From: a virus
Lineage: Duplodnaviria > Caudoviricetes
Strand: one strand, 5' to 3'
Length of the DNA stretch: 64,000 nucleotides
IMG/VR virus record: IMGVR_UViG_3300019378_000951
Location: 64,001 to 128,000 of that record
The translations under genes were made by a program, and so were the position numbers. Shown here one piece after another: positions 23,291 through 40,298 of this stretch. The notes under the pieces are model-generated. The model was given only the letters and a program-made list of their open reading frames with translations. It was not told where the DNA came from and did no database searches. Within the stretch, counting starts at the first letter, position 1, and each line of letters starts with the position of its first letter.

Positions 23291-23317
23291 TTGATTTGTA
23301 CGAGAAAGGAGAAAATA

Positions 23318-26300
23318 ATGTTTTATTTGGATAAATTAAAAGAGAATAAGCTTTATAATAAATTTCCAATTTCGGGAATAAATGCTTCAGCTCAAGATAA
23401 GCGTAATGGAACATGTTTAATGGTTTTAGGTAAAAATCAAAATGAAACAGTTGAAGTCCTTAATGCCGGACTAGTAAGTCCTATGAATTTTAGATCTTTT
23501 TATATACCACGTAAAATAAAAACAGTTCACGCAAATAAAGTAACATTAGTTAAGCAAAAAGATTATTATGATGTTATAAAATCCAAAGCTGCAAATATAA
23601 GTTTTACATTGACAACTATAGAAGCTTATAAAGGTAAAAACTTAATATATGATATGTCTCAAGAAATTGAATTTACAAATTCTATAATAAAAGTTTCAGG
23701 AAAACGTAAATACGAGATAATGTCAAAAATGATAATGACTCGTTTATATGAACTTAAAGCTCATTATCAAAATGTAATAATATTATGTCCGATGAGTATA
23801 AACGAAGAATCATATACTAATATAAATGCTGCAAATTCAATGAGTCAATATATTTATCACATGTTACAATCTGGAATTCTTGAGGATGAAATGGTTATAA
23901 TGTTTGCACCAGCTTCAAGAATATACACATTATTTAAAGGTAATGAAAATACAGCTAATGAATCAATGAAAATAATAAGACGTTTACAAAACCGTATTAA
24001 TGGTGTTGACGAAGATTCTGAAGAAAATGCTGAAATTAAAACTGTTAATGATGATGAAGTAGTTCAAGATGTATCAGAAACTGTAGTTAATAAAGAACTT
24101 AAGCCTATATTAAATAAAATAGGCATGAAAGTTGATAAGGTTCCATCAGATTTACACCCAATGGTATCTGCTTTACAAGATATGGTACAAGAAGTAATTA
24201 AAACTAAATCAGAAGAAGAAATGGTGGAAGAGGTTCTTAATAAATCACCTGAATTCTTAGAAATGTTTAGTGAATTAGTTGAAATTAAAAAGGTTGGTAT
24301 GAACAATGCCGAAGCTATTAAGAAAACAGAACGTATACAAAAACTTAAAGAAAAACAAGGGCTGGTTCAAGTTACAGATAATTTAACAATAGCAGATATA
24401 CTAGCGGATTTTGAAGAAATTAAATTAGAACCAATAATACTTCCTGCTAGAACTATTAACAAAGAAATACAGCAATCATCAGTTAAAAACTTTGATAGTT
24501 CTTATCAAAAGAAAGTGTTAGAAAAAGATATAGCAAGTATATTTACAGCATTTAACAATGATACAGATATTAAAATATTTACAACAAGAGTTCAAAAAAC
24601 TGATAGTTCTGATGATTTATCTAATAAAGAAACATACAGTCTTACAATGGAAGACGACAGAGGTAATAAACATAATGTAACATTTGATTTGCCTAAAGTT
24701 AAAGAAGGTAAATTTATGTACTTAAACTCAGGTAAAAAACTTATACAAAAACAAATAATGCTTTTACCTATAATAAAAACGCATCCAGATAAAGTACAAG
24801 TTACATCAAATGCTAATAAATTCTTCGTTGAACGTTTTGGACAAAAAATGTCATCAAGATTAGATGCATTAAAGAGATTATGCATATCTGATGCTTTAAG
24901 AGGTTCTAATATAGAAGTTAAAAAAGGTAATGCTAAAGGAGTTAACTCTAAACTTCAAACAAACCTTGAATATTTAGACTTCTCTGATAGTGTTTCTGAA
25001 ATAAACTTTGGAGACCTTAAATTACAATTTAACTATAATTTAATAATGAATATGCTTAATCCTAATAAACCAGATTTCAATGAAAAAGTATATAATGAAT
25101 TCGGAGATAAAGATAAAGATTTTATGTTATTTGGATATTCGCGTAAAGAACTTATAATGTTCGATAGAATATCTGGAGAAGTATATAGCCAAATAAATGG
25201 TAAAAATGATAAAGTTGCAGATTCTTTATTTGATTATGTATTAGGCTTAATAAATAAATCTAACGTAGATAAAAAAGTTGTAGCTTCTATACTTAATAAA
25301 AAACCTGGTAAATCATACGCGTACAGTAGAATAGCTATAAATAGTAAACGCATGCCATTAATATGTATACTTGGTTATGAACTAGGATTATCAAAAGTTC
25401 TTGAAAGATATGAAATAAAATATAAGTTCTCTCAAGAAGTACCTAAGTATGCAGCAACTAACAAACAAGAAATAATTAGATTCTTAGATGGATATTTAAC
25501 ATATGATTCTAGCCTATTACGTAATTCATTATTATTAAATGGACTTTCTGCAGTAGGTTGTGAAGAATATAGTTTTGAAGATATGGATACTATAGAACCA
25601 TATTTAGACATGTTCTATCAATTAACTGGTTCTAGAAATGCTGGTAAAGGTATACATAATAACCTTAGTTTAATGATAGACCCGTTAACACTAGATGTAT
25701 TAAGAAAACTACATTTACCAGAAAATATATATGATATATTACTTTATTCTAATACATTACTTGAAGATGTTACATTTAAGAAAATGAATGATATGAGTAC
25801 TTATCGTATAAGGGGAGCAGAACAAATACCAGCATTAGCTTATAACTGTTTAGCTAACTATGTAAGAGAATATAAAGACAAAATACGTGCAGGAAATAAT
25901 AATGCTAGAATAAGTATGCCTAGAGATATAGTAATTAAAAAGATACTTGAGCTAGCAACAGTAGATGAATATTCTACACTTAATCCATCACTTGAAATAG
26001 AACGTAGTTCAGGTGCAACATATAAAGGTTTAAGTGGTAAAATAATGCCACCTCGCATATGTGAGTAAAACTTCTTTAATTGCTGGAAACTCCTATATGG
26101 ACAATCAGCAACCAAGCTCGAAAGAGAAGGTTCAACGACTATCGAAACCGTTAATAAGGGAGTAGAGTACCGAAAGGGAAATGGGAAGCATCAGAGATGA
26201 TGAAGATATAGTCTGAACTATATAGAAATATATAGGTAACATAATGATTAACCTTGATAGTGCATATACACCTGCTATACGTAGTTATGATAAATCAATG

Positions 26301-29300
26301 AATGGATTATTTAGTTATAGTACTCCTAAAATGGGAATTTTATTATAAACACTATTGGGAGTGTAAAACTTCTTTAATTGCTGGGAACTCCTATATGGAC
26401 AATCAGCAGCCAAGCATCTATAAGATGAAGGTTCAACGACTATCGAAACCGTTAATAAGGGAGTAGAGTACACTCAGAATGAGTGGAAATGGGAAGCACT
26501 AGAGATAGTGAAGATATAGTCTGAACTATGCAGAAATGTATAGTTAACATAAATGGATAGTGACAAAGTTGGGGTTAGAAAGACAATCTAATGGCTCCAA
26601 CTATAAAAAAGCTCTTTAATTGCTGGGACATCCCATGAGGACAATCAGCAGCTTAATTAATCTTACTTTTATTTTATAACAAATATGTATAAATAAAAGT
26701 AGGAGTGGTGAATATAAATGAATCTTAAATTAGAATTAAATGGCAGTACATATAATATAAATACTGAAAGTTATCCAGAAGGATATGGATTAAAACTATA
26801 TGAACAAGCACAGAAATTCGGATATATGTGTTATAATTATTATGAATGCATAGATGACAATACTTCATATTTGCTTATGTTTTCAAAAGCATATGGCATA
26901 ATAAAAGCTAAAGTAGATAATGAAGATATTCCTAAACTATCTAAATGTACATGGAGACCTAATTATTCTAAACGATCTCAAAAATATTACGTAGAGAATA
27001 CAGATAAAGGTAAAATGCATAGATATATAATGGGGTTTAACAAAAAAGAAGATGTAGATATAAAAATTGATCATATAGATAGAGATCCTTTAAATAATTG
27101 CAAAACTAATTTACGTAAAGTAACTCAAGCTGAAAATTGTAAAAATTCTTCATTGAGAAGTGACAATACATCTGGTATAAAAGGTATACGATATGAAAAA
27201 AGTAGAAACAGATGGTCAGCTGAAATACATGTAGATGGTAAAAAATATACTAAATGTTTTGCAGTTAGTAAGTATGGATATCAGGAGGCATTAAATTTAG
27301 CTATTGAATTTAGAAGAAAGATTGCTGAAGAAAATGGATTCATAAACCCATTTAATTAAGTTCAACGACTATCGAAACCGTTAATAAGGGAGTAGAGTAC
27401 ACGAAAGCACGTGGAAACAAGAGCCACTAGAAATAGTGAAGATATAGTCTGATCTGTATAGCAATATACAGTTAACATAAATGCGTTAGACAATTAACTT
27501 ATAACCCTAATATACTTAATACAAGAGGATTCGTAGACACAGATAGATCAGAAAATCCGGCTATAGATTATTTCGGTCCAGCTGAGCTACTTAACCCATT
27601 CACTAAATTAATTGGTGAATTAAAACTTCTTTAATTGCTGGAACCTCCTATATGGACAATCAGCAGCCAAGATAAAATAATCATCTAACAATATAAAAAT
27701 CATTTTAACAAATCTCTATTAAAAATTATTGAGAGGAGTTAACAAATGCCTAAAAAATTAACAGAACAAGAAGTTCGAGATAATATTAGTAAGATAGATA
27801 ATGGAGAATATGAATTAATAGGACATTATATAAATAGTAAAACTCCAATTAAAATAAAACATAAATGTGGACGAATAATGGAAATTCAATATGGAAAATT
27901 TACTGGAAAAAGAGCTCAAAGATGCAGATGTTTATTTGAACATCATAATAAAATGAGTCTGGATGAATTTAAAAAACGTTTATTTGAAAAACATGGGAAC
28001 AATTATGAAATTGTAAACGAAAATGAGTATGTTGATTATAATACTCCTATATATTTTATACATAAACCGTGTGGTAATAAATATAAAAGAAAACCAGATA
28101 ATGTTATTAGATGTAATACATGTGTAGAATGTAGTTATACGCAAAAATTAAGAGCTTCTAATAACACTACAAAAACATTGTCTCAAATAAAGAATGAGAT
28201 TGATAAAATAACTGAGGGATCATGCAAATTAGCATACGATATAAACTATATAAATAATAAACAAGAATTGCCAATACTTCATAAGGAATGTGGTAAAATT
28301 AGCATGATTAGTTTTAATGATATTTCAGTTAAAAATACTAGATGTAGATATTGTAGTGGAAGTAAAGGAGAACTTATAATACAAGATTATCTTGATACTA
28401 ATAATATCAAATATGAACGAGAAAAAATTTTTGATAATTTAATTGATGAAAAACATCTTAGGTTTGATTTTTATATAGAAAATTACAATCACAATCTTTT
28501 AATAGAATTTGATGGAATTCAACATTTTGAACCAACATTTGGAAAAGATGATGTTGAAAAACAAAATAGATTTGAACTAACTCAAAAGCATGATAATATG
28601 AAAAATGAATATAGCAGAATACATGATATTAATCTTTTGAGAATTCGATATGATGAAATTGACAAAATAAATAAAATATTAGATGACTATTTTTATAAGG
28701 TTCAACGACTATCGAAACCGTTAATAAGGGAGTAGAGTACACTTAACTGTGGAAATGGGAAGCACTAGAGATAGTGAAGATATAGTCTGAGCTATGCAGA
28801 AATGTATAGATTAACATAACTGAATCAACACGCAGACCCACCGAGAATTAATAACCTGGTTCTCGTTAAACTTCTTTAATTGCTGGAACACCCTACAAGG
28901 ACAATCAGCAGCCAATCCTGAAAAGGAAGGTTCAACGACTATCGAAACCATTAATAAGGGAGTAGAGTACACCAACAATGGTGGAAATGGGAAGCACTAG
29001 AAATAGTGAAGATATAGTCTGATCTGTATAGTAATATACAGCTTAACATAATGCGGAATGCAGACAACTTAATTGTTGGGTTGTCTATAAAACCCTTTTA
29101 ATTGCTGGAACACCCTATATGGACAATCAGCAGCCAATCCTGAAAAGGAAGGTTCAACGACTATCGAAACCATTAATAAGGGAGTAGAGTACCGAAAGGG
29201 AAATGGAGGGCACTAGAGATAGTGAAGATATAGTCTGAACTATGCAGAAATGTATAGATTAACATATGCAACAAAAACATATAATCCCTATAAAGAAAGC

Positions 29301-30910
29301 ATCTCGTCCATTATTTGGATCAGGGGCTGAAAAAACTTTACCGTACCTACTATCAGATGACTTCGTAGATAAAGCAGAAAAAGCAGGAGTTGTAGAAAGA
29401 ATAGATAAGAAAATTAACTTAGCTGTTCTTAAATATGATGATGGTACTAGAGGAGTAATAGATCTAGCACCAGTAATGTCTAAAAACTCAAACGGTGGGT
29501 TAAAGAAATAGCTCACATTAAACGCTTTTAATTGCTGGGATATCCTATATGGACAATCAGCAGCCAAGCTCGAAAGAGAAGGTTCAACGACTATCGAAAC
29601 CGTTAATAAGGAAGTAGAGTAAATTTCACTTTGTTATGATATTTTTGAAAAGGAGCGCATCAGAGATGATGAAGATATAGTCTGATCTATACAGCAATGT
29701 ATAGTTAACACAAATGTTTTCTTAAAAAATGAAAAGAGATTTATGCTTAATGAAGGAGATAAATTTAAGCAAGGACAAATTATAGCTAAGAATGATCAAT
29801 ATTTCTTAGGAGATAATGCTGATAATGTAACTTATTCTACAGGGCGTATGACTAAAGTTGCCGTTACAAGTGCAGATTATACCTTAATATAGGGCTTTAT
29901 ATTAGAAATAATATATCGAAATACTTTTAATTGCTGGGAAATCCTACATGGACAATCAGCAGCGAAGATATAATATCTTTAACATGTATAATTTAATAAA
30001 CAAAAAGAAAATGATATTATATAACGTTCAACGACTATCCCGATAGGGAGTAGAACCAAGCGGTTCGAAATGGAGTACATCATATATGATGTTGATATAG
30101 TCTGGTCTATATAGAAATATATAGAAGGTATGATGTAGCGAATCATATCGCAACATAAACGATGAAGATAGTTCTATGGTTACTGATGCATTAGCTGAAG
30201 ACCTTACTTCTAAAATAACTATGAAGAAAACTATCAATCTAGGAGTAAATGCAAATATAGAACAGATGGTTAAAGTTGGAGATAAGATTAAAACAGGACA
30301 ATCTTTAATGATATTCGAAGAATCATTTGAAGATGAAAGTATAAATGCATTACTTGCTACTTTAGGTGATGAGTTTAATGAGCATGTAAGAGAAAACTCT
30401 AAAAATAAACTTAAATCTAAGTATACAGGAGAAATAGTTGATATAGTTATTTATTATAATAGAGATATAAGCGAATATCAACCTTCAGTACAAAAAATAT
30501 TAAAAGATTATATTAAAGCTGAAAAACTTAAAAAGCAATTTGTTAAAACTGCAACTGGGTCTAACGATGTTAGTTCTATACGTATGAAACCAATTAACAA
30601 ACAAAAACCTGGTAAAATAAAAGGTGAAGACGTTGATGGTTTATTAATAGAAATCTATATAGAATATATGGATAAAGCTGGTGTCGGAGACAAAATTACT
30701 TTCTACACAGCATTAAAGACTATCATATCAGATGTTATACCTAAAGGACAAGAACCATATAGTGAGTATAGACCTAATGAAGACATAGATGCAGTATTTT
30801 CTCCACTATCTATAAACTCGCGTATGACTACAGATGTTTTCAATGCGATGTTTTTAGGTAAGGCACTTATAGAATTAAAAAGACAAATAAAAGATATATA
30901 TGAAAAATAA
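23318..30910 (+). CDS. rpoB: Phage RNA polymerase beta-like subunit (probably virion RNAP), spliced: join(23318..26038,26247..26327,26556..26575,27484..27604,28823..28848,29054..29069,29269..29500,29717..29884,30162..30910), 1377 aa
   Basis: Splicing restores beta motifs in frame: KGLSG|INLD..STP|DSDKVGV|VRQL, NPFT|NQHADPPRI|GMQTT|QQKH, KNSNGGF|F, T|YEDS; also GKFMYLNSGKKL, GDKIT, SPLSINSRMT; exon sum 4134 nt is divisible by 3. Confidence 0.9.
26039..26246 (+). ncRNA. Group I intron 1 of RNAP beta (208 nt, no ORF)
   Basis: P1 GTGGT/GCCAC; P, Q, R and S core elements; ends AACATAATG. Confidence 0.92.
26328..26555 (+). ncRNA. Group I intron 2 of RNAP beta (228 nt, no ORF)
   Basis: P1 ACTCCT/GGGAGT, P10 CTATT/GATAG; core elements; ends AACATAAATG. 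Confidence 0.92.
26576..27483 (+). mobile_element. Group I intron 3 of RNAP beta, carrying an HNH-AP2 endonuclease
   Basis: P1 GTTGGGGT/GCTCCAAC, 7-bp P10; ORF inserted between Q and R elements. Confidence 0.92.
26718..27359 (+). CDS. Intron-encoded HNH-AP2 homing endonuclease
   Basis: MHRYIM, IDHIDRDPLNNCKTNLR (HNH), NTSGIKGI...RWSAEI...KCF..KYG..EA (AP2). Confidence 0.9.
   Translation: MNLKLELNGSTYNINTESYPEGYGLKLYEQAQKFGYMCYNYYECIDDNTSYLLMFSKAYGIIKAKVDNEDIPKLSKCTWRPNYSKRSQKYYVENTDKGKMHRYIMGFNKKEDVDIKIDHIDRDPLNNCKTNLRKVTQAENCKNSSLRSDNTSGIKGIRYEKSRNRWSAEIHVDGKKYTKCFAVSKYGYQEALNLAIEFRRKIAEENGFINPFN
27605..28822 (+). mobile_element. Group I intron 4 of RNAP beta, carrying a Zn-ribbon/PD-(D/E)xK endonuclease
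   Basis: P1 ATTCACT/GGTGAAT; core elements; ends AACATAACTG. Confidence 0.92.
27746..28735 (+). CDS. Intron-encoded endonuclease: three HxxC..CxxC Zn-ribbon repeats plus Vsr/DUF559-like nuclease domain
   Basis: KHKCG, IHKPCG, LHKECG repeats; SKGE...LRFDFYI...LIEFDGIQHF...HDNMKNEY...LLRIRY. Confidence 0.8.
   Translation: MPKKLTEQEVRDNISKIDNGEYELIGHYINSKTPIKIKHKCGRIMEIQYGKFTGKRAQRCRCLFEHHNKMSLDEFKKRLFEKHGNNYEIVNENEYVDYNTPIYFIHKPCGNKYKRKPDNVIRCNTCVECSYTQKLRASNNTTKTLSQIKNEIDKITEGSCKLAYDINYINNKQELPILHKECGKISMISFNDISVKNTRCRYCSGSKGELIIQDYLDTNNIKYEREKIFDNLIDEKHLRFDFYIENYNHNLLIEFDGIQHFEPTFGKDDVEKQNRFELTQKHDNMKNEYSRIHDINLLRIRYDEIDKINKILDDYFYKVQRLSKPLIRE
28849..29053 (+). ncRNA. Group I intron 5 of RNAP beta (205 nt, no ORF)
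   Basis: P1 CGAGAAT/GTTCTCG; core elements; ends AACATAATG. Confidence 0.92.
29070..29268 (+). ncRNA. Group I intron 6 of RNAP beta (199 nt, no ORF)
   Basis: P1 GACAACT/GGTTGTC, P10 TTGTTG/CAACAA; ends AACATATG. Confidence 0.92.
29501..29716 (+). ncRNA. Group I intron 7 of RNAP beta (216 nt, no ORF)
   Basis: P1 GTGGGT/GCTCAC; core elements; ends AACACAAATG. Confidence 0.9.
29885..30161 (+). ncRNA. Group I intron 8 of RNAP beta (277 nt, no ORF)
   Basis: Core AATTGCTGGG, AATCAGCAG, TTCAACGACTA, GATATAGTC; removal restores T-Y-E-D-S; ends AACATAAACG. Confidence 0.88.
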
Positions 30911-30942
30911 AGATATAACCCTTTTATAAGGGTTATATCTTA
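30910..30942 (+). terminator. Stem-loop after the RNAP gene
   Basis: AAGATATAACCCTT...AAGGGTTATATCTT. Confidence 0.7.
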
Positions 30943-31046
30943 AAAAATATTTTAAATACATATTATTATTATGATAGAAATATAATTTTTATCATTTAAG
31001 TTAAAAAAATGTGAAAAAAATTAAATTAAAATGGAGGTAATTTAAT

Positions 31047-31223
31047 ATGATGGAAACTAAATATGCTATGGAGATAACTAAAGAAAATGAAACTATGTTA
31101 AGAATTGAATCTCATGATAGAGATTCGTTATTACAAAGAGCTAGATTATATCATAAAAAACATCCAGATGCCATAGTAATGGTATATGAAGTTTCATGTA
31201 TATTTGCAAGAGAAACAATATAA
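31047..31223 (+). CDS. Small hypothetical protein (58 aa), not in ORF track
   Basis: GGAGGT RBS with AT-rich leader; open frame. Confidence 0.6.
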   Translation: MMETKYAMEITKENETMLRIESHDRDSLLQRARLYHKKHPDAIVMVYEVSCIFARETI

Positions 31224-31304
31224 ATTAATAATTAGTAAACGATGATATATTAAAAAACTTTTCCGGTAACTTATTTTTATAATTAACTTAAGGGGTGTGT
31301 TCAA

Positions 31305-31937
31305 ATGGACTTAAAGAAAAATGTAACTATAATAGCAACTACAATGATAGGTACTGCTGTGGGAACAACTTTATTAATTAATGGTGTTAAAACAAAAGCA
31401 CCTGAATTAAACAATGAAATTAATGAAAACCCAGTAATATTAAAGTCTGAACGCAAAGAAACACAATCATCATATAATAAAGTAAAAGAGATAAATGAAG
31501 ATAATATTAAACTTTTAGTGTATGAATCTTCAGAAGCTAAGTATGAAAGAACTTTAAGAACAAACGACTGGATAAATGTGACTAGTAAATTATCTACTAC
31601 TTACTCATATAATGCAACTATTGATTTAAGTAAAGCTGCTAAAGTTTGTGAAGTACGTGGAATAACATTTGTAGATATTGACACAAGTAAAATTAAATTA
31701 AATTGTATCAATATAGCAGAACCAATTGTTAAGACAGATGTTAACTTCTTTAACCAATTCAAAGGCAGATCTATAGAGGAAAACATGAATCAACTAGTTA
31801 TATTAACATATGAAGACATTGAAGAGATAGTCAACAAACAATTTGACGAAAATCATGATAAAATGGTTAAAAATGTTAAAGAAAAAGTACGTAGTCTATA
31901 TGATGGATTAGACAACGTAAAAGTTAGATTTAATTAA
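31305..31937 (+). CDS. Membrane-anchored DUF4230-like protein
   Basis: N-terminal hydrophobic helix; YSYNATIDLSK pattern. Confidence 0.4.
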   Translation: MDLKKNVTIIATTMIGTAVGTTLLINGVKTKAPELNNEINENPVILKSERKETQSSYNKVKEINEDNIKLLVYESSEAKYERTLRTNDWINVTSKLSTTYSYNATIDLSKAAKVCEVRGITFVDIDTSKIKLNCINIAEPIVKTDVNFFNQFKGRSIEENMNQLVILTYEDIEEIVNKQFDENHDKMVKNVKEKVRSLYDGLDNVKVRFN

Positions 31938-32036
31938 TTTTATATAATAACCATAAAAAAGTTGAATAACTAAAGTTAAATATTATAAGACGCAATTCAA
32001 CTTTTGTAAGGTCAAATTTAGGGAGGATAAATTATT

Positions 32037-32786
32037 ATGAAAATGGGTAAAAAAGTTATAAGTAGTGTATTAATGGGAACAACAGTATTAAGTTCTATGT
32101 TAAATTGTCACGGTGAAGAAAGACAATATATAAAATTTTCAGTAGGGGAAGAAGAACCGGAAAAAGTTGTAGAAACAAGTAATACACCAGACATAGTAGT
32201 AAGACCAGGTGAGTATGATGGAAAACCTGGTAAAAGAGTATATATAAATCCTAATTTAGTAAATGTACCATCTGACATACCTGTTAAAGTGGATGATAAA
32301 GGATTTTATATACAAGAATTTGATATCAATTTTAAATTATGCAAAGCTATAGTTTCTAAGTTAGAAGCTAAAGGTGTAAATGTTAAATTTCAAGTAGCTG
32401 AAAACAAGTATCAAGATTTAAATGCTGCTGGTAGAGCTGCAAGTAAAAGTGGTGCTAAAATGTATCTAAGTGTTCATCATAATAGCTTTAAAGAAAACAG
32501 TGAAGGCTATTTCTTTATGACAAATCAAGGAAATGCTAAAGATGCGAAGTACGCACAACAGATGAGCGATGCAATATGTAATGGTAGTGTTAAACAATGT
32601 AAGAATAGAATAAATGACGGTTATATTGGTGAAATGAATGAAACAGGTGGTATGATAAACATATTAGGAGAGTTTGGATTCTTCAGTAATGTAAACGAAT
32701 TACAAAAGATAATAAGTAACGAACAGGTTGAATACGTAAGTACTCAACTTGCAGAAGAGATTTATGAGATACTAGAATTAAACTAG
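32037..32786 (+). CDS. Secreted N-acetylmuramoyl-L-alanine amidase (Amidase_3-like)
   Basis: Signal-like N-terminus; VVRPGE, EFDIN, YLSVHHNS, ILGEFGFF. Confidence 0.75.
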   Translation: MKMGKKVISSVLMGTTVLSSMLNCHGEERQYIKFSVGEEEPEKVVETSNTPDIVVRPGEYDGKPGKRVYINPNLVNVPSDIPVKVDDKGFYIQEFDINFKLCKAIVSKLEAKGVNVKFQVAENKYQDLNAAGRAASKSGAKMYLSVHHNSFKENSEGYFFMTNQGNAKDAKYAQQMSDAICNGSVKQCKNRINDGYIGEMNETGGMINILGEFGFFSNVNELQKIISNEQVEYVSTQLAEEIYEILELN

Positions 32787-32892
32787 TATCATTTTAAATA
32801 AGAATGAATATATATTCATTCTTATTTTTTTTTTTCGTGTATTCGTATTATATGAACATATTCATATTAAACTATAAAAGGGGTTGATCATA

Positions 32893-33195
32893 ATGTATAA
32901 AGTTATAGTAATTAAAGAATATGGAAAAAAATCATCAATACAAGAATTTGATAACAAACCTGAGGCTATTGCAACTTTCTTAGAATTAATAAATGCTGAA
33001 TGTGAAAGACATGCTTTGGCTAGTAAATATATTAGAATAGACAGCGAAGTACGAATGAGAGGAGATTTATTTTATTCTAGAGAAGATAATTATAGAGGTG
33101 AATATATTGTTATTGTAGGTAACGGATTAGAAGAATATAGAAATCCTGGAAAATATAAACAAATTATGAAGAAATATGTAAATCAATTATTATAA
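32893..33195 (+). CDS. Hypothetical late protein
   Basis: ORF downstream of AACA-N6-TA at 32855-32866. Confidence 0.55.
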   Translation: MYKVIVIKEYGKKSSIQEFDNKPEAIATFLELINAECERHALASKYIRIDSEVRMRGDLFYSREDNYRGEYIVIVGNGLEEYRNPGKYKQIMKKYVNQLL

Positions 33196-33207
33196 GGAGG
33201 TTTTAGC

Positions 33208-36200
33208 ATGTCAGCAATTAATGGTTATATTACAAATAACCAACTTGAATATTTTAGAGAATCATTAAAGCAAGTATATGCAACAAAATCAGAAGTATAT
33301 AATAAAATTGAAATTGATACTAATTTTTTAAGAAAAGGCGAAGCTACAGTTCCAGTAGAACATTCTCACAATCCAGTAACTGAAATCCAAGATGGTTTTA
33401 TGAAAAAAGAGGATAAAGTTAAATTGAATGGTATTGCAGCTAATGCTAATAAATACGTTCATCCAGAAAATCATCCAGCTTCAATGATAAAACAAGACGA
33501 CAACCATAGATTTGTTACACAAACTCAATTAAACTTAATTGATAGTAAATATAAAATTGAAAGCTTACCTAATGATGAATATAATATCAGACTTAGAGAA
33601 GGTAATATCGATTTAAACACGCTATATCTACTTACAGGTGTAGCTGAAAATAAAGATGCTATAGTTGGTATATATTTTGGAGAATTGCCATATTTAGGGG
33701 GATACTTACCCAGATACATCCCTGTAGAACGCGTAGTACTAGATAAAATACGCTTCAATGTAGAGGCAGGGTTTGAAACTTGGATTGGAGCTAGCGTCCA
33801 TCCAAGTAATTCTAGTTTTCGTATGCTAGATTATGAAATACAAAATAAAGAAATAATATCGATAAATAGATATGGTAAAATTAAAGGTCTTAAAAAAGGA
33901 CACACATTTGTAACAATTAGAGCTAAAGATAATCCTGCAGTTTTCGAGACAATATCTGTTACGGTAAGTAAAACAATTGCAGATAGTATGGAAATTAATG
34001 AACCTGAATCGCTTGATGTAACAGTTGGATGTTCTGTACCAGTAAAAGTTGAAATAACACCGTCAGGTATTAATAATAAACTATATTGGGTAACATCAGA
34101 TAGACGTACTGCTATTATTGATTACAATGGAGTTGTAACAGGACTAACTCCTGGAAATTGTTATATAACTGGATATACTACCGACGGTACTGCATTAAAA
34201 GATTCATTATTAATAAATGTGATAGAAAAAATTATATATTCTGAAAATTTAATAATAAATAATTTAAAAACTGAGTTATTTGTTGGAGATTTTTATAAGT
34301 TAGATTATACTATTATTCCTGATAACGTTAGTAATAATAAAATTAAATTATTTTCAAGTAATACTGATATCTTGGATGTAAACAGTGATAATAGTACTTT
34401 ACATGCAAAATCAATTGGCGATGTATTATTAAATATAAAAACTGCTGATGGAAAAGTAAATTATGGAAATTTAAAAATAAAAGTACGTAAACCTATAATT
34501 CTCGCTGAAAGTGTTGAGCTGCAACCACTAGATAATAAATATTTAGGAGATATATTTGATATTTTTTATAATATTTTCCCTATAAACGCAGATAACTACA
34601 AAGAATATTTAGAAATTGAATGCGATTCAAATCAGATTGAAAAAATATGTGATAATGGAGAATATAGGTTTATTGCAATAAACCCTGGCTCTGCAAAAAT
34701 TAAAATTACAATAACTGATGAAAATGATAATTTTTTATGTTCAGATATTAAAAATATTGAAATACTAGGAAAAGACATTGAAGTGCCTGTAACATCAATT
34801 AAAATTATAGATAAATTAATAATAAATAAAGATGAGCGACCAACAGTTAAACTAAATTGTGCTATTGAACCTGTCGTTGCTACAAACAAACAAGTTTATT
34901 GGAGAAGTAGCAATGATACAGTAGTTTCAGTTGATTCAGAAGGTGTTTTAACTGCAAAATCATATGGGGTAGCAACAATTACATGTTATTCAGTGTATGG
35001 TAATTTTAGTTCTAGCTGTATTGTAACAGTAACTGGTACAGAGGTTCCAGTATCAACTGTATCACTGCTTATAAATGAAAATTATAAAAAAATATTAGTC
35101 AACGAACAATACAAACTACCGGTAGTGGTATATCCGGCGGATGCCTGTAATAAAAAATTAAAATATAAATCAAGTAATAATACTATAGCTACTGTCCTTG
35201 AAGATGGAACTATAATAGGACTGACGAAAGGTGTATGTGAAATTACTGCAACCAGTGAATCTGACTTAACAAAAAGTGTATCTTGTACTGTAACTGTTGT
35301 TGAAAATATTAACGATGTATTAGCTCATATTATTAGAATAGAAAATCAATTATTAAACGTGATTAAAGATAAAAAATTGCAATTAAGAATTAAAATACTG
35401 CCTACAGATACTACCGATCAAGAAATATTATGGAGCACATCAAATAATTTAGTTGCCGTGGTTGATAAAAATGGTTTAGTATTTGGACGTTCAGAAGGTA
35501 GTTGTTATATACGAGCTTATAACAAAGCCAGTAACATTGAAACTACCGTCGAAATAAATGTAATTTCAGAAGATGATGATTCTAGTATAGGTAGTGTTTC
35601 ACTGTTAAATGGATATACAAAAAAATGTTCAGCATACAATATTTTTAGTCAAGATTTTAAAACAGTTCCATCATCATTAGCTGAAACTCTGAATCCTTTA
35701 TCTACAGAATCAGATTATCCATTTGTGGCTGGTGTTAATGGTAATACAGTTATATGTCAAAATGTAGATGGTTTTACAATAATTAGAAGTAAATTTGAAA
35801 ATAATAAAAGCACTAATTTACATTTATTTGTAAACGATAGTGGAACTTATCTTAAAGATTTTAATGTAGTTCCAAGTGTGGTAACAATATTAGAAGGGGA
35901 AACTGTCAAATTAAGATTCCAATGCGACCCTTATAACTTTGCACTTGACGAAAATTCTTTAATTTATGATATTGTTAAAAATGATGATAATGATAAAGAC
36001 GTAATCAAAATAGAAGATGGTAATATTACAGGAATAACAGAAGGAATTGTTTCTATTTTTATAACATATGATGCTTTGGATAATGACCCTATAACAACTT
36101 CCGCAACTATTCGTGTTGTGAATAAAGATACAATGTATGAAAATTATGACATTATAGTTAGTGGCAATATTGCTACTATCTATAACGATGATTATTTTGA

Positions 36201-37233
36201 ACGTTATTTACTTTACTCTGAATTACCATATGATGTTAATGAACGAGACTATATTAAACTGGATGATAATGGTGTTACTAAATATTTAAGATTAACTAAT
36301 CAATATAGCAGGTCGCTATTTAAAATAGGTGATGGGAAACAACCTACATCAGGATTTTCAACTAATTTAATACCTAGATACAATTTTAGATATGGCAATA
36401 TTAGAAAAATTACTTTTAAAAATCAATATCTTACAGAAGGTTTAGTTGATACAGCTAGAAACGAACTATCAAGAATTAATAGTAATTTTAAGTTAATAGA
36501 AGATGAAAATTCTAAAAATATTGTAGAAGAAGACAGATATGCTGATACATGGAATGGATTAACTGAAAGTACTGTTAATAAATATGGTTTTGTTGATACG
36601 TTTAATATGTATATAAATCGCCAAAATTTTGAAATTAATGACGATAATACAAATATACTTAAAAATATTACACTTCATGAGTTTTTACATGTATTAGGAT
36701 TTGATGACTTAGACGATGTAGATCAAAATGAATTAAATGTAAATACAATATTATCGTATTATAGAGACAAATTAGTTTGTAACACTTTACAGCCTACAGA
36801 TGTTTATACATTATTAGACATGTATGGTCTTGAATCAGATATAACGGATTTACAATTAGGAAGCGGTTATAAAATTAGTAGTACTAAACTAGTTGGAGGG
36901 GATAACGATATGTTAAGAACAGTCTCATTCAGTTATGATGCTATTCCTGATTATTTATTAAGTGAAAAATCAGATATTGTTGTAATTGGATTTGCTGATA
37001 AAATTGAAACTAAAAAAATAAATATCAGCGGATCTAGAATAATGGAATATGACGTAGTTACATTCTTAATAAGTGAAGTTGAAAAAGGTAGAGTCGATAA
37101 TACTATAGAAGTAAAATTCCCAGTGGATAAAGTTAATATTGATTTAGGTGAGAACTATTTACTTTATTTAAAAGACTATGGTAAAATTCCAGCTTCACCA
37201 TTAAATTTAACTAACGCTATAAAAAAATTGTAG
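33208..37233 (+). CDS. Virion fibre/decoration protein with Ig-like (Big_2) repeats and a C-terminal zinc metallopeptidase motif
   Basis: GFMKKEDKVKLNGIAANANKYVHP fibre repeat; several (W/Y)xSSNxxVAxVDxxGxxxG Ig repeats; HEFLHVLGFDD. Confidence 0.75.
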   Translation: MSAINGYITNNQLEYFRESLKQVYATKSEVYNKIEIDTNFLRKGEATVPVEHSHNPVTEIQDGFMKKEDKVKLNGIAANANKYVHPENHPASMIKQDDNHRFVTQTQLNLIDSKYKIESLPNDEYNIRLREGNIDLNTLYLLTGVAENKDAIVGIYFGELPYLGGYLPRYIPVERVVLDKIRFNVEAGFETWIGASVHPSNSSFRMLDYEIQNKEIISINRYGKIKGLKKGHTFVTIRAKDNPAVFETISVTVSKTIADSMEINEPESLDVTVGCSVPVKVEITPSGINNKLYWVTSDRRTAIIDYNGVVTGLTPGNCYITGYTTDGTALKDSLLINVIEKIIYSENLIINNLKTELFVGDFYKLDYTIIPDNVSNNKIKLFSSNTDILDVNSDNSTLHAKSIGDVLLNIKTADGKVNYGNLKIKVRKPIILAESVELQPLDNKYLGDIFDIFYNIFPINADNYKEYLEIECDSNQIEKICDNGEYRFIAINPGSAKIKITITDENDNFLCSDIKNIEILGKDIEVPVTSIKIIDKLIINKDERPTVKLNCAIEPVVATNKQVYWRSSNDTVVSVDSEGVLTAKSYGVATITCYSVYGNFSSSCIVTVTGTEVPVSTVSLLINENYKKILVNEQYKLPVVVYPADACNKKLKYKSSNNTIATVLEDGTIIGLTKGVCEITATSESDLTKSVSCTVTVVENINDVLAHIIRIENQLLNVIKDKKLQLRIKILPTDTTDQEILWSTSNNLVAVVDKNGLVFGRSEGSCYIRAYNKASNIETTVEINVISEDDDSSIGSVSLLNGYTKKCSAYNIFSQDFKTVPSSLAETLNPLSTESDYPFVAGVNGNTVICQNVDGFTIIRSKFENNKSTNLHLFVNDSGTYLKDFNVVPSVVTILEGETVKLRFQCDPYNFALDENSLIYDIVKNDDNDKDVIKIEDGNITGITEGIVSIFITYDALDNDPITTSATIRVVNKDTMYENYDIIVSGNIATIYNDDYFERYLLYSELPYDVNERDYIKLDDNGVTKYLRLTNQYSRSLFKIGDGKQPTSGFSTNLIPRYNFRYGNIRKITFKNQYLTEGLVDTARNELSRINSNFKLIEDENSKNIVEEDRYADTWNGLTESTVNKYGFVDTFNMYINRQNFEINDDNTNILKNITLHEFLHVLGFDDLDDVDQNELNVNTILSYYRDKLVCNTLQPTDVYTLLDMYGLESDITDLQLGSGYKISSTKLVGGDNDMLRTVSFSYDAIPDYLLSEKSDIVVIGFADKIETKKINISGSRIMEYDVVTFLISEVEKGRVDNTIEVKFPVDKVNIDLGENYLLYLKDYGKIPASPLNLTNAIKKL

Positions 37234-37285
37234 GAATATAGAAAATTTTCAAAAAAATAAGGATGGATTATTCCATCCTTATTTT

Positions 37286-38077
37286 TTATTCTTCTTCATA
37301 TTCCATATCTTTCAACCAATGTAAAAACGCACTATCTACTTCCTTGGCAACTTTCTCTATACATTCCTTAAATCCTTCCTTATATGGAATCCATAGACCT
37401 CTATTCTCTAATATATCTAATGAAAATACTGACATACATCCATTTGGAATATCGTGACGCATATCACGATTTATATATTCTATATAATCTATATAATCAT
37501 GAACTTCGCGATAATCTTCATCACGTGTATAACCAATACTATTCAATGCGTTTCTTGCATTGTCTATAAATTTGGCAACTTCATTTTCATCTAGCTCCGC
37601 TATAGATTTATCAACCTTAGCTCCAGTTTCAGGATCTGAAGCCCAATCTTCATAATCATATTCATCTCTCCATGGATAATGTCCGAAAAGTTCATTGCCC
37701 CATTCTTTACATTTTTCAAATATATCATTTTCTTCTTTCCACGCGTTGTATATAACTTCAAGATCTTCTTTTTCTTGCTCTATTGCTAAAACTTTATCTA
37801 AAACTTTATCATGCTCAATATTGTATTCTTTATATTCCTTTTCTAATCTAGTTAGTTCTTCATCGCTTAGAACTATAGGTTTAGGTACTTCTTCTACCCA
37901 TTCTTCTTTTTCTTTGTCATAATACGTAAATTTCCAATTTCTATTGCAAGGAAGTTTATTCCATTCATCATTATATTCTGGGTATTGTCCTACCATTTCT
38001 AATCTTCTACTTTCTATTGCTTTAAATCTTTCATCAAATTTTATATATTCATTTCTTAATTCATCATAATTTTTCAT
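37286..38077 (-). CDS. Hypothetical acidic protein
   Basis: 263-aa ORF with GGAGGT RBS. Confidence 0.65.
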   Translation of the reverse strand: MKNYDELRNEYIKFDERFKAIESRRLEMVGQYPEYNDEWNKLPCNRNWKFTYYDKEKEEWVEEVPKPIVLSDEELTRLEKEYKEYNIEHDKVLDKVLAIEQEKEDLEVIYNAWKEENDIFEKCKEWGNELFGHYPWRDEYDYEDWASDPETGAKVDKSIAELDENEVAKFIDNARNALNSIGYTRDEDYREVHDYIDYIEYINRDMRHDIPNGCMSVFSLDILENRGLWIPYKEGFKECIEKVAKEVDSAFLHWLKDMEYEEE

Positions 38078-38121
38078 ATATCATTACCTCCTATAAATTT
38101 AAAAAAATTAGAACATAGGTT

Positions 38122-38538
38122 TTACCCTATGTTCTTGTTTAATCTTTCTCTTAATTTTATTATATCTTTTTGGTCTTTTTCTCTATTCAGATATTCTTTC
38201 ATTTTTAAAATATCTTCTAGTTTTTGACATGCTATTCCTTTTTCTATTGTTATTATTCCTTCGTCTAATTTTTCTCCTTTGTCAAAGAATTCCACTTCTC
38301 CAAATTCAGTTTCTATAGTTCCTCTTCTTTCTTTCCACGCTTTTCCCCATCCGCCATTTTCAGCGTCTGCTCTCTTCATCATTCTTTCAAAAGCTTCTGT
38401 TGTTAATCCTACATCTAAATCATGAGTTTCTTCTCTTAAATCATGTATTAACATACTTCCACCCATGTATATGAAGTATTCTCCTACTTCTAATCCTAAT
38501 CCTTTTATTGTTTTTACTGCTTCTTCTAATTTGAACAT
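38122..38538 (-). CDS. Minimal nucleotidyltransferase-fold protein
   Basis: GGS...ETHDLDV (hG[GS]..DhD) and C-terminal K..LNREKDQKD. Confidence 0.65.
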   Translation of the reverse strand: MFKLEEAVKTIKGLGLEVGEYFIYMGGSMLIHDLREETHDLDVGLTTEAFERMMKRADAENGGWGKAWKERRGTIETEFGEVEFFDKGEKLDEGIITIEKGIACQKLEDILKMKEYLNREKDQKDIIKLRERLNKNIG

Positions 38539-38611
38539 AATACTACCTCCACATTTAATTTTATTTTTACTTCACAAAAATAATATATATTTTAAAAATA
38601 TTATATTACGA

Positions 38612-40298
38612 TCAATCTATATAATTATCTATATCTATTTCAACTATTTTTAATGTTAAGTCATGGAATGCTTTAAGTGCTATATTAAGTATTCTAGACG
38701 CTATACGATTTGTAAGTATTCCAACATTTTCTATACCTAACATATAATATAACTCACCAAAACATTTACTGCAATATTTATCACCTTTACAATATAATGG
38801 GGATCTAAATTTAACAGTTTTACCGATATAGTCTTTTATATTTTCAGGAGTTAATAATACAAGTTTTTTACCTTCAATTATATATCTGTATTGGAAGAAT
38901 TTAGTTAAATCTTTAGTAAGAGTTAATTCAAGATAACCATTAGAACCACAATCGCTTCCAGGTTCATCTAACTGACATCCTTGAAATGCTGCCATAAGTT
39001 TTTTACCTTCATATCCCATAGTGTTAACCTATACATTTCTGTATAGCTCAGGCTATATCTTCACCATTTCTGGTGCTTCCCATTTCCACTCGTTAGAGTG
39101 TACTCTACTCCCTTATTAACGGTTTCGATAGTCGTTGAACCTTCCTATCTCTAGGCTTGGCTGCTGATTGTCCTATTAGGATTTTCCAGCAATTAAGAAA
39201 GTTTATAGAGAGCCGATAAATTTTGATCCCTCTCGAGTACCAATTGCACGGTTATAAGAAGCTTGAGTTATAAGGTCGGCATATGCCGCAAATTCTTCTT
39301 GAGGTATACCATCTACTAATGATTTAGTACTTATAGTTATTTTATCATCACTAAGATGACGAATTGCACCCATTATGTTAATCGTATTTCGCAAAAATAC
39401 GTTCGCTATACATTTCTGTATAGATCAGACTATATCACAATCTTTTCAGATTTTGCTTATTTCCATTTAAGGGATTTTCACCCACCGCATCAACTTCGGC
39501 CGTACTCCTATTGCTTATTTCAAAGCCAAAGGGATAGTCGTTGAACCTTCTTCTATTGAAGCTTGGCTGCTGATTGTCCTTATAGGATTTTCCAGCAATT
39601 AAAGCAATTTGCTTAATATATTTCTATACTAAGGCGCAGTGTTGTTTACGCATTACTGTAGAGTTTTTATAGTTATTTCCATAAGACCCCCTACATCCAC
39701 TATCGTATATTTGCTGATCTGGTATATATTGGACTGTCTCTTTAGCTAATCCAAGTAATTCTTTTTCCATTTTATCCGCAACTAATACATTTCCTGCTTC
39801 TAATTCTTTTGCATATTGCTTTGATAGTTCAGCTTTTCTTTTTTCAACATTTTCAGGTGGTATTAATAAATCTATTGTAAGAGCTGCATTCATAAACTTA
39901 GCTGTAGCAAATCCAAAATATTGAACTCTATCTATATATTCTGCCATATCTTCAGATGTTATTTTATCAGTAAGTAAGTATTTAGACATAAGATCATCTA
40001 AATCTCCTATGCCACCTTTACCCATTGTCATATTTTGATACCCTAGTTTCTTTAATAAATTTTCTCCTAAAGCATATTTATTAAATATGAGTCTTCCAAC
40101 TGTAGTTTCTTCTTTATTTTTATTATAAAACTCGTTAGGATTTAATGTAAATTCATCAAATGGCTGAAATTTAGGATTTTGATCTTTTCTATATGCAAAT
40201 AAATCTTTTAAAAGATTTAAATCTATATCTTTTTCTTTTAATGAAAGTAAATATTCTTTTTCTTTAGCCGTTATTTGTCTTGCAACTTCTTTAGCCAT
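38612..40298 (-). CDS. rpoC: Phage RNA polymerase beta'-like C-terminal subunit, spliced: complement(join(38612..39016,39227..39370,39648..40298)), about 399 aa
   Basis: TTVGRLIFN, SGCRGS, MR|GA, bridge helix TREG|GYEGKKL, DCGS, Zn site RSPLYC...CSKCFG, trigger-loop end LKAFH; second junction is non-canonical. Confidence 0.85.
39017..39226 (-). ncRNA. Group I intron B of RNAP beta' (about 210 nt, boundaries uncertain by 1 nt)
   Basis: Core nearly identical to the beta introns; S element reads AAGATATAGCC; ends AACACTATG. Confidence 0.82.
39371..39647 (-). ncRNA. Group I intron A of RNAP beta' (277 nt, no ORF)
   Basis: P1 GCGT/GCGC, P10 CACT/GGTG; core elements; ends AACATAATG; removal restores MRG. 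Confidence 0.9.

What the first reader, a model, noticed from the sequence alone, without database searches (positions are those of the whole stretch)
26039..39647. One near-identical ~200-nt ribozyme has spread to many sites, with a different guide at each and mostly no endonuclease
Seen: beta introns 1-7 and beta' intron B share the almost invariant block GTTCAACGACTATCGAAACC(G/A)TTAATAAGG(G/A)AGTAGAGTA, and introns 5 and 6 are nearly identical over about 100 nt. Their insertion sites are unrelated, and each internal guide is complementary only to its own exons. Eight of the 11 introns in the window have no ORF. Classical homing copies an intron only to the same allelic site. Inference: the family spread by ectopic transposition (reverse splicing or trans-acting endonucleases), or old introns are being homogenised by gene conversion.
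Basis: partly seen in the sequence, partly recalled or inferred. Interest (0 to 1): 0.85.

Follow-up and report, generated by a model that had tools for sequence, protein, structure and literature searches.

The report
Group I intron family in jumbo phage
A 216-kb PBS1/AR9-like jumbo phage carries at least 21 self-splicing group I introns, 15 built on one shared ribozyme core with a site-specific guide. Comparison with relatives shows ordinary endonuclease-driven homing, endonuclease loss and recombination between copies, not a newly copied, near-identical element.

Summary
The 40-nt block occurs 8 times in the window (0 expected) and 15 times in the 216-kb genome. All 8 beta introns and both beta' introns are true group I introns, and their removal restores proteins colinear with intron-less homologues.

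"Near-identical" overstates it. Cores are 73-90% identical and differ by compensatory changes. 34 of the 40 block bases are the J6/7-P7-P7.1 core shared by introns of many unrelated phages. Only the 6-nt GTTAAT linker marks this family, which also occurs in unrelated phages.

Close relatives show rapid turnover. I1, I2, I8 and two other introns are absent from them, and they carry introns at three to four sites that are empty here. I3 with its HNH-AP2 gene is 98% identical to the relatives' copy, against 80-87% in the flanks, which indicates recent homing. ORF-less I7 keeps the last 7 codons of an endonuclease gene that a relative still has.

AR9 has five introns in the same gene, two at identical sites. 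Its site-3 endonuclease is 51% identical to ours, yet its ribozymes at the shared sites are no closer to ours than other-site introns are. Copies are mosaics, and no reverse transcriptase was found.

Verdict: a new, unusually intron-rich member of a known kind. How the core first reached each site remains unresolved.

The parts
23291..30910 (+). Virion-RNAP beta subunit gene, 9 exons: 23291-26038, 26247-26327, 26556-26575, 27484-27604, 28823-28848, 29054-29069, 29269-29500, 29717-29884, 30162-30910
   Evidence: The spliced product (1386 aa) is colinear with intron-less P0004 and P0006. PHROG RNAP beta families match. The ortholog is AR9 gp188, annotated as a virion RNAP subunit.
26039..26246 (+). 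Beta intron 1 (208 nt, no ORF); block at 26130-26169; exon GTGGT pairs with guide GCCAC
   Evidence: Rfam 83.4 bits. Junction fixed. Absent from relatives L015, L016 and L111.
26328..26555 (+). Beta intron 2 (228 nt, no ORF); block at 26431-26470
   Evidence: Rfam 83.3 bits. Absent from L016 and L111.
26576..27483 (+). Beta intron 3 (908 nt) with an HNH-AP2 homing endonuclease ORF at 26718-27359 in the P6 loop; block at 27360-27399
   Evidence: Pfam AP2 and HNH_3. 98.0% nt identity to L016 and L111 over 1051 nt, against 80-87% in the flanks. Same site as AR9 intron c, whose HEG gp189 is 51% identical.
27605..28822 (+). Beta intron 4 (1218 nt) with a 329-aa CapR/DUF4379-repeat plus EDxHD/Vsr-like endonuclease ORF at 27746-28735; block at 28700-28739
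   Evidence: Alignment A1 with 5 paralogues has invariant E, D, H and D residues. Pfam hits across the members. The family is described in PMC12350094.
28849..29053 (+). Beta intron 5 (205 nt, no ORF); block at 28930-28969
   Evidence: Rfam 79.8 bits. 94/98 identical to I6 over the 5' two thirds.
29070..29268 (+). Beta intron 6 (199 nt, no ORF); block at 29152-29191; a mosaic copy
   Evidence: Rfam 82.4 bits. Informative sites: 21 in a row match I5, then 16 of 17 match g191k. Its 3' part matches I4 at 69/82 and I2 at 68/84.
29501..29716 (+). Beta intron 7 (216 nt, no ORF); block at 29582-29621; keeps the last 7 codons (YDIFEKE) of a lost endonuclease gene
   Evidence: Relatives L120 and L124 carry a 330-aa HEG in a roughly 1-kb insert at this spot, with 91-95% identical flanks. 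Same site as AR9 intron e.
29885..30161 (+). Beta intron 8 (277 nt, no ORF), a different core subtype without the block, inserted in the YEDS active-site motif
   Evidence: Rfam 73.4 bits. Precisely absent from L120.
38612..40322 (-). Virion-RNAP beta' C-terminal subunit gene, exon ranges 39648 up to about 40322, 39227-39370 and 38615-39016, stop codon at 38612-38614
   Evidence: PHROG 2962 is colinear over the three pieces. tblastn of intron-less AR9 gp263 fixes the junctions.
39371..39647 (-). Beta' intron A (277 nt, no ORF), core subtype without the block (extended P7.1/P7.2)
   Evidence: Rfam 84.8 bits. Exon GCGT pairs with guide GCGC. Junctions.
39017..39226 (-). Beta' intron B (210 nt, no ORF); block at 39101-39140. 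Homology places the 5' junction after an A. The alternative Rfam P1 would start the intron at 39256.
   Evidence: Rfam 84.9 bits. AR9 gp263 reads TREG|GYES across the junction.
7235..8362 (+). Eleventh window intron, in an AAA ATPase gene, divergent core, HNH endonuclease ORF at 7450-8154. Boundaries are approximate.
   Evidence: Core elements at 7301, 7387, 8169 and 8285. PHROG HNH and ATPase hits. Splice-site candidates.

Best explanation
These are working IA-type group I introns of one sequence family that circulates among PBS1/AR9-like jumbo phages and co-occurring phages.

**Anatomy.** Each copy joins a site-specific 5' adapter (P1 guide plus P2) to a common catalytic core (P3-P9). The 40-nt block is J6/7, the 5' strand of P7 and a minimal P7.1.

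**Movement.** Copies with an endonuclease gene (HNH-AP2, or CapR-repeat plus EDxHD/Vsr-like) move by classical double-strand-break homing into the same site of co-infecting relatives.

**ORF-less copies.** These are deletion derivatives of endonuclease-bearing copies. Alternatively, or in addition, they may be carried along by co-conversion, because every ORF-less beta intron lies 20-168 nt (spliced distance) from an endonuclease-intron site.

**Similarity across sites.** It reflects common descent of the core plus exchange of core modules by recombination between copies. The adapter, and sometimes the endonuclease, stay with the site.

**Shown:** intron identity, splice junctions, covariation, presence/absence alleles, the I3 transfer tract, the I7 endonuclease remnant, mosaicism, and the shared sites with AR9.

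**Inferred:** hitch-hiking, core swapping as the main homogeniser, and the way the core first reached each site.
For: - The 40-mer occurs 8 times in the window and 15 times in the genome. About 20 introns share the core elements, and a 21st was confirmed against an empty allele.
- Spliced beta and beta' are colinear with intron-less homologues.
- 17 of 43 predicted base pairs show compensatory changes, in P3, P5, P6, P8 and P9.
- Core identities are 73-90%.
- The first 20-mer of the block occurs in 84 IMG/VR stretches. In most of these other phages' introns a hairpin sits where ours have GTTAAT.
- In the tree, a 29-member clade (support 93/92) mixes 14 own copies, 9 from relatives and 6 from unrelated phages. 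The own copies are not monophyletic.
- I3 is 98% identical to the relatives' copy, against 80-87% in the flanks.
- I1, I2, I8, the g207k intron and the 19.9-kb intron are absent from relatives. Relatives carry introns at three to four sites that are empty here.
- I7 keeps an endonuclease remnant. The UvsX-site intron has an endonuclease-bearing allele that keeps a similar adapter (30/37) but differs in P5, P7.2 and P9.
- Seven paralogous CapR/Vsr-like endonuclease genes sit at seven different sites. All four copies in this genome are intronic.
- AR9 gp188 has 5 introns, two at our sites 3 and 7. Its HNH-AP2 gene is 51% identical to ours, but its ribozymes are no closer to same-site than to other-site copies.
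- Intron 6 is a mosaic.
Against: - Splicing is inferred, not observed. No RNA data could be obtained.
- The recombination statistics are inflated, because gap columns and paired positions are not independent.
- The star-like tree on about 196 columns is poorly resolved: 20 of 36 inner branches are open.
- L016 carries I3 without I1 and I2, so hitch-hiking is not obligatory.
- Core swapping cannot be separated from loss followed by re-invasion by another family member.
- Relatives are short metagenome contigs, so site occupancy is known for only part of the genome.
Confidence: 0.68

Rival explanations
1. RNA-level ectopic transposition. Excised introns reverse-splice into transcripts that match a short guide seed. 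The product is then reverse-transcribed and recombined into the genome, seeding each new site with a ready-made P1.
For: - All copies sit in essential genes and each has a working P1.
- 8 of 15 follow GGU and have guides starting GCY (p = 1e-8 against background; 15.5% background even among GC-rich sites).
- Sets of sites and guides are cross-compatible over 5-7 bp.
- I1 and the DNA-polymerase intron share the 7-nt exon end and the guide.
- Reverse splicing needs only 4-6 nt of pairing (review PMC3984707).
Against: - No RVT_1 match in the 216-kb record, which is about 84% complete.
- No pair of copies exceeds 90% identity, so there is no recent event to inspect.
- The GGU preference also holds for family members in unrelated phages. 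It may simply reflect the need for a stable, GC-rich P1 in a genome of about 27% GC (exon flank GC 0.64 against 0.30).
- The review states that no direct experimental evidence for this pathway exists.
Confidence: 0.12
2. Pure concerted evolution. The introns entered their sites long ago and independently. Gene conversion between copies within a genome has since made the cores alike, with no transposition of this particular family.
For: - Sites 3 and 7 are occupied in AR9, at 37% aa identity in exon 1. Site 3 has an orthologous endonuclease, while the ribozymes differ by genome.
- Intron 6 is a mosaic.
- The invariant core segments could serve as recombination anchors.
Against: - Own copies are not monophyletic. 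Copies from unrelated phages fall among them.
- Same-site copies in close relatives have stayed 94-100% alike without being pulled toward their neighbours.
- I1, I2 and I8 are missing from close relatives, and relatives have family copies at sites empty here, so sites are still being gained or lost.
Confidence: 0.2
3. No special relationship. The block is merely the universally conserved catalytic core, and the introns are unrelated acquisitions.
For: 34 of the 40 block bases (GTTCAACGACTATCGAAACC and AAGGGAGTAGAGTA) recur in introns of many unrelated phages.
Against: - Fifteen copies share the derived GTTAAT linker. In IMG/VR the full 40-mer was found in only one other contig, and in metagenomes a 25-nt part spanning the linker in 14 short contigs.
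- Identity extends over P3-P6 and P8-P9.
- Some copies share identical P6 loops (CAAGCTCGAAAGAGAAG in I1, I7 and g150k).
Confidence: 0.03

Closest known systems
Bacillus phage AR9/PBS1 virion-RNAP beta gene (gp188) with its group I introns and HNH-AP2 endonuclease gp189
   Same: - Orthologous gene, 37-38% aa identity in exon 1 and about 60% in the C-terminal part.
- Annotated as 6 joined pieces.
- Introns lie in the same 220-aa conserved stretch.
- Two sites are identical to ours (GTTGGGGT| and GGTGGGT|).
- The HNH-AP2 gene sits in the P6 loop of the site-3 intron and is 51% identical to ours.
   Different: - Eight introns here against five.
- AR9's other three sites are 3-4 codons away from ours (aa 920, 946 and 1008 against 916, 943/949.67 and 1004).
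- AR9 introns are 300-380 nt without ORF, have other peripheral elements, and do not carry our GTTAAT form of the block.
- The beta' C-terminal gene is intron-less in AR9 and has two introns here.
Intron-dense huge phages: Jug phages (PMC12880540) and crAss-like phages
   Same: Many short, ORF-less group I introns per genome. The Jug phage paper reports a mean of 18.5 per genome, about 206 nt each, in essential genes such as terL, together with many stand-alone or intronic homing endonucleases. Splicing was confirmed there by metatranscriptomes.
   Different: - A different phage lineage: a PBS1-like jumbo phage of about 27% GC with multisubunit RNAPs.
- Eight introns in one gene, with micro-exons of 16, 20 and 26 nt.
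- The text read from that paper does not analyse family relationships between sites.
CapR/DUF4379/DUF723-repeat plus EDxHD/Vsr-like homing endonucleases of AR9-type phages (PMC12350094)
   Same: The same architecture and Pfam signals, with invariant E, D, H and D residues in the C-terminal domain. They sit in group I introns of virion-RNAP genes.
   Different: Here four paralogues (27-34% aa identity) sit in four family introns at different sites, and relatives carry three more. None was found outside an intron in this genome.
Homologous intron sets in one phage: T4 td, nrdB and nrdD (sunY), and the three introns of Twort orf142 (from my own knowledge, not checked here)
   Same: Related IA-type ribozymes at different sites in one phage genome, some with and some without endonuclease genes.
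   Different: The scale differs: 15 family members and at least 21 introns here, against 3-5. Population data on gain, loss and endonuclease deletion are also available here.

Membership tests
Group I intron (Rfam RF00028) | Covariance-model score above the curated threshold | tested here: met
   Eight window introns score 73-85 bits against a threshold of 50. The two ORF-split introns score 38 and 30 bits on their 3' halves only. The genome has 14 hits.
Group I intron (Rfam RF00028) | Removal restores an uninterrupted, conserved reading frame | tested here: met
   Beta aligns without gaps to P0004 and P0006 at all 8 junctions. Beta' matches AR9 gp263.
Group I intron (Rfam RF00028) | P1 with a U.G wobble at the 5' splice site, and a terminal G at the 3' end | tested here: met
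   A U.G wobble with 3-8 bp of P1 in 9 of 10 window family-type introns, and a terminal G in all 10. Exception: homology places the beta' intron B junction after an A.
Group I intron (Rfam RF00028) | Conserved helices supported by covariation | tested here: met
   17 of 43 consensus pairs keep pairing through changes on both sides.
Group I intron (Rfam RF00028) | Self-splicing activity | not testable with these tools
Subgroup IA (T4 td / Twort-like, with P7.1/P7.2) | Extra helices between P7 and the 3' strand of P3 | tested here: inconclusive
   The element order was read from the alignment: GACUA (P7), then a minimal hairpin, then CACUC..GAGUG, then GGGAAG (P3'), then P8, then UAGUC (P7'). 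No subgroup-specific model was run.
Classical endonuclease-driven homing | Endonuclease gene in a loop, intron-plus and intron-minus alleles, and a tract of raised identity that includes flanking exon | tested here: met
   For I3: an HNH-AP2 ORF, and 98.0% identity over exon 3 + I3 + exon 4 against 80-87% upstream. Empty alleles exist for I1, I2 and I8.
Reverse-splicing retrotransposition | A reverse transcriptase is available | tested here: not met
   No PF00078 match in the 216-kb record. The record is about 84% complete, and a host enzyme is not excluded.
Reverse-splicing retrotransposition | Related copies share guide and target sequence | tested here: inconclusive
   GGU enrichment and cross-compatible guides. 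The tree is too unresolved to pair donors with recipients.
CapR-repeat plus EDxHD/Vsr-like homing endonuclease | Repeated treble-clef/CapR-like domains followed by a Vsr-like nuclease domain with E, D, H and D residues | tested here: met
   DUF4379 in 5 of 6 members, CapR in 3, DUF2726/DUF559 in 2. E254, D256, H260 and D283 are invariant.

The most novel reading that the evidence does not exclude
The family is still colonising new sites by an RNA-guided, reverse-splicing-like route that needs only a GGU seed. The guide is lengthened afterwards, and the core and endonuclease cargo are swapped between sites by recombination. If so, this phage population would be a natural system in which ectopic group I intron transposition, never shown directly, could be caught between closely related genomes.
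Probability: 0.12. Interest if true: 0.85.

Novelty: new member of a known kind. Interest (0 to 1): 0.45.

Why it matters
How group I introns reach new sites is an acknowledged open question (review PMC3984707). This lineage offers unusually rich material for it:
- 15 related ribozymes with different guides.
- At least 21 introns in one genome.
- Eight introns and 16-26-nt micro-exons in one essential gene.
- Close relatives that differ in which sites are occupied and in whether the endonuclease gene is present.

The data also show that the endonuclease and its site can stay constant while the ribozyme around it changes subtype (site 3, ours against AR9). This bears on how composite mobile introns form.

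There is a practical consequence too. The repeats fragment metagenome assemblies and break gene calls in RNAP, terminase, recombinase and polymerase genes.

Tried and rejected
- The search for related loci with the 916-aa exon-1 protein in IMG/VR found no relative. Relatives came instead from the protein search and contig look-ups and from a metagenome pattern scan.
- megablast of the region against cultured phages matched only short intron-core stretches.
- Rfam found nothing in two further regions flagged by earlier notes. One of them (19858-20043, minus strand) is nevertheless a real intron, shown by an empty allele in L123. RF00028 therefore misses some introns here.
- No reverse transcriptase, GIY-YIG or classical HNH (PF01844) match in the genome.
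- A PDB profile search with the endonuclease family gave no significant hit.
- The Rfam-suggested P1 for beta' intron B (junction after GCTTCT) was rejected. It would delete ten codons (YNRAIGTREG) that are conserved in AR9 gp263.
- The max-chi-square screen of 1365 triples reached the permutation floor. I treat it as descriptive only, because gap columns and paired sites are not independent.
- The AR9 genome paper could not be read.
Full report
**1. The observation**

Dinucleotide-preserving shuffles expect none. The window is bases 64001-128000 of a 216,390-bp IMG/VR virus record, about 84% complete and about 27% G+C. Genome-wide the block occurs 15 times with at most one mismatch.

Rfam RF00028 scores eight window introns at 73-85 bits. 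It also finds the 3' halves of the two ORF-carrying beta introns at 38 and 30 bits. Scanning for four conserved core elements gives about 20 introns of this architecture in the genome. A 21st, more divergent one (genome 19858-20043, minus strand) was confirmed because relative L123 has the uninterrupted sequence.

**2. The introns are real and the junctions are fixed**

Joining exons 23291-26038, 26247-26327, 26556-26575, 27484-27604, 28823-28848, 29054-29069, 29269-29500, 29717-29884 and 30162-30910 gives a 1386-aa protein. It aligns without a gap at any of the eight junctions to two intron-less homologues, P0004 (1388 aa) and P0006 (1368 aa). All eight introns fall in the conserved stretch between aa 916 and 1137.

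The gene is the ortholog of AR9/PBS1 virion-RNAP beta. The minus-strand gene is the ortholog of AR9 gp263, the virion-RNAP beta' C-terminal piece. That gene is intron-less in AR9, which fixes our exons at 39648-~40322, 39227-39370 and 38615-39016.

A consensus fold of 11 ORF-less family members gives 43 pairs, of which 17 keep pairing through changes on both sides. The copies are therefore under selection for structure and have diverged independently.

**3. What the block is**

GACUA in the block pairs with UAGUC in GATATAGTCTG. The block is thus J6/7, the 5' strand of P7 and the helix that follows.

Its first 20 bases occur in 84 IMG/VR stretches from many phages. In most of those introns the 20-mer is followed by a variable hairpin and then AAGGGAGTAGAGTA. 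In our family the hairpin is replaced by GTTAAT.

So 34 of the 40 bases are a widely conserved core, and the 6-nt linker is the family marker. In IMG/VR the exact 40-mer was found in only one other contig, an unrelated 113-kb phage (L021 and L022). A 25-nt pattern spanning the linker was found in 14 short metagenome contigs.

**4. How alike the copies are**

Over the 5' core plus the 3' half, the 15 block-bearing introns are 73-90% identical. The closest pair is I2/I4 at 90%. The best matches outside the genome, in the unrelated phage, reach 81-87%, almost as high as within the genome.

Introns 5 and 6 agree at 94 of 98 positions up to the end of the block, but at only 60 of 81 afterwards. The 3' part of I6 matches I4 (69/82) and I2 (68/84) better than it matches I5, and its short P7.2 (CCGAAAGG) is that of I1 and g191k. 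This is a mosaic. The title "near-identical" therefore holds for the block and for the I5/I6 5' halves, not for the ribozymes as wholes.

**5. Host genes and guides**

The family sits in these genes:

| Host gene | Introns |
|---|---|
| Virion-RNAP beta | 7 family + 1 other subtype |
| Beta' C-terminal piece | 1 family + 1 other subtype |
| Two further RNAP subunit genes | 1 each |
| Second RNAP beta gene | 3 (1 family) |
| terL | 1 |
| UvsX-like recombinase | 1 |
| Polymerase gene | 1 |
| Virion structural gene | 1 |

A divergent intron lies in an AAA ATPase gene.

Each guide pairs best with its own 5' exon, 4-8 contiguous pairs. However, 8 of the 15 sites end in GGT, against 3.5% of T-ending positions in the host genes and 15.5% of GC-rich ones. 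Several guides could also form 5-7 pairs with other sites. The same preference is seen for family members in other phages. It may therefore be a functional requirement for a stable P1 in an AT-rich genome, or a trace of guide-based target choice. I cannot separate the two.

**6. Relatives show turnover and classical homing**

| Relative | Similarity to ours | Differences from our genome |
|---|---|---|
| L015 | 90% nt | Lacks I1. Has another endonuclease-bearing intron four codons downstream (after INLD). |
| L016, L111 | 80-87% nt upstream | Lack I1 and I2. Carry I3 with its HNH-AP2 gene at 98.0% identity over exon 3 + I3 + exon 4. |
| L120, L124 | 91-95% nt | I7 carries a roughly 1-kb insert with a 330-aa endonuclease gene. 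I8 is precisely absent. |
| L117 | about 89% exon identity | UvsX-site intron has a similar P1-P2 adapter (30/37) but an extended P5, an endonuclease gene and different P7.2 and P9. |
| L116 | 85-95% nt | Lacks the g207k intron. Has two others in the same gene. |
| L123 | 90% nt | Has an intron at a site empty here. Lacks our 19.9-kb intron. |

The 98% tract in L016 and L111 is the signature of a recent homing event with co-conversion. Our ORF-less I7 retains the last seven codons (YDIFEKE) of the gene that L120 and L124 still carry, so its endonuclease was lost by deletion.

**7. The endonucleases**

I4, three other introns in this genome and three in relatives encode paralogues of one family (27-34% aa identity). 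The family has repeated CapR/DUF4379-like zinc modules followed by a Vsr-like domain with invariant E, D, H and D residues. This is the family described in 2025 from AR9-type phages (PMC12350094).

All four copies in this genome are intronic. The genome also has three HNH_3 ORFs and four LAGLIDADG ORFs. It has no GIY-YIG, PF01844 or reverse transcriptase match.

**8.

A maximum-likelihood tree of 42 cores places 14 own copies, 9 from relatives and 6 from unrelated phages in one clade (support 93/92) that is largely unresolved inside. The own copies need 13 changes of label, no fewer than shuffled labels need.

Same-site copies in close relatives group strongly: I3 with L016 and L111, I7 with L120 and L124, g191k with L112. 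Same-site copies in distant phages do not:

| Comparison | Identity | Best other-site copy in our genome |
|---|---|---|
| L018 site 1 vs I1 | 73% | 86% |
| L017 site 3 vs I3 | 64% | 85% |
| AR9 intron e (site 7) vs I7 | 60% | 81% |

AR9 gp188 is annotated in six pieces. I placed its five introns at aa 920, 946, 949.67, 1008 and 1081.33 in our numbering, so two sites are identical to ours. AR9's site-3 endonuclease is 51% identical to ours. Yet its ribozyme is of the other core subtype, like our beta' intron A, and is no closer to I3 than to our other introns. The refutation condition is therefore not met. Sites, and at site 3 the endonuclease, persist while the ribozyme chassis differs by lineage.

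**9. Reading**

The simplest account is a family of mobile introns that behaves as the homing cycle predicts. Endonuclease-bearing copies invade the same site in co-infecting relatives, the endonuclease gene is then lost, and introns are lost and regained. On top of this, recombination between copies exchanges core modules. The adapter stays with the site because it must match the exon.

The ORF-less beta introns lie 20, 101, 26, 42 and 168 nt (spliced distance) from sites that carry an endonuclease intron here or in relatives. Co-conversion could therefore carry them along. This is inference, and L016 shows it is not obligatory.

How the core first reached each site is not resolved. No pair of copies is similar enough to mark a recent jump. 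No reverse transcriptase is present. The GGU bias is compatible with, but does not demonstrate, guide-based targeting.

**10. Comparison with what is known**

- Multi-intron virion-RNAP genes with HNH-AP2 and CapR/Vsr-like endonucleases are annotated and published for AR9/PBS1.
- Genomes with about 18 short ORF-less group I introns are published for Jug phages.
- Related introns at different sites of one phage genome have been known since T4 and Twort (my knowledge, not checked here).

This locus is a new and extreme member of that kind, with eight introns in one gene and at least 21 in the genome. Its added value is population-level evidence on gain, loss and exchange. Earlier notes of this scan on the same genome had already flagged module shuffling, P3 covariation and sister introns in other genes. 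I re-tested those points here.

Noticed in passing
window 39220-39260 (-): Homology with intron-less AR9 gp263 (TREG|GYES) puts the 5' splice site of beta' intron B after an A (GAGAGGGA|UCAAAA). In that register the guide GCUCUCU pairs 6 bp with AGAGGG, and an A.G stands where the universal U.G wobble should be. The Rfam-proposed P1 would have a U but would delete ten conserved codons.
   Followed up: partly
genome 19858-20043 (-), outside the window (L125:858-1043): A 186-nt group I intron with a divergent core, missed by RF00028 even at E<=1. It is confirmed by the uninterrupted allele in relative L123 (ACGTATGAT|TGGGTATTG).
   Followed up: yes
genome 131413-131871, 156818-157330, 158846-159271, 1730-2305 (+) and 3878-4015 (+): Four double-motif LAGLIDADG ORFs and one further HNH_3 ORF. 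RF00028 does not detect introns there.
   Followed up: partly
L127 (AR9 146981-161779), introns at locus 8812-9194, 9273-9607, 9619-10671, 10850-11202, 11423-11723: All five AR9 introns in gp188 end in a very similar tail (..GTAGCGAAyCTA..GGAAGnTAAnG). A micro-exon of only 11 nt (AAAGTTGGGGT) lies between introns b and c. Our I8, g32k and g135k introns have a related GTAGCGAA hairpin.
   Followed up: no
L015:3560-4236: A 90%-identical relative has an intron after INLD (aa 920), the same site as AR9 intron a, with a CapR-like endonuclease ORF. No family core elements are seen before the contig ends.
   Followed up: partly
L111-L124 (JGI contigs Ga0233383, Ga0233384 and Ga0233386): The related phages are assembled only as 1-3.5-kb contigs, several of which begin or end inside intron copies. 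The repeated cores appear to break short-read assemblies.
   Followed up: no
L037, L045, L063, L073, L081 (IMGVR_UViG_2706796125_000001, 251,042 bp): This IMG/VR contig has the same length as the AR9 record. It holds at least ten introns with the 20-mer core, and several share an identical long P7.1 extension (ACTCTAACAGATCGTTGTGATAACGCTAGTTAG). AR9 therefore seems to have its own within-genome intron family. Identity with AR9 was not checked.
   Followed up: no
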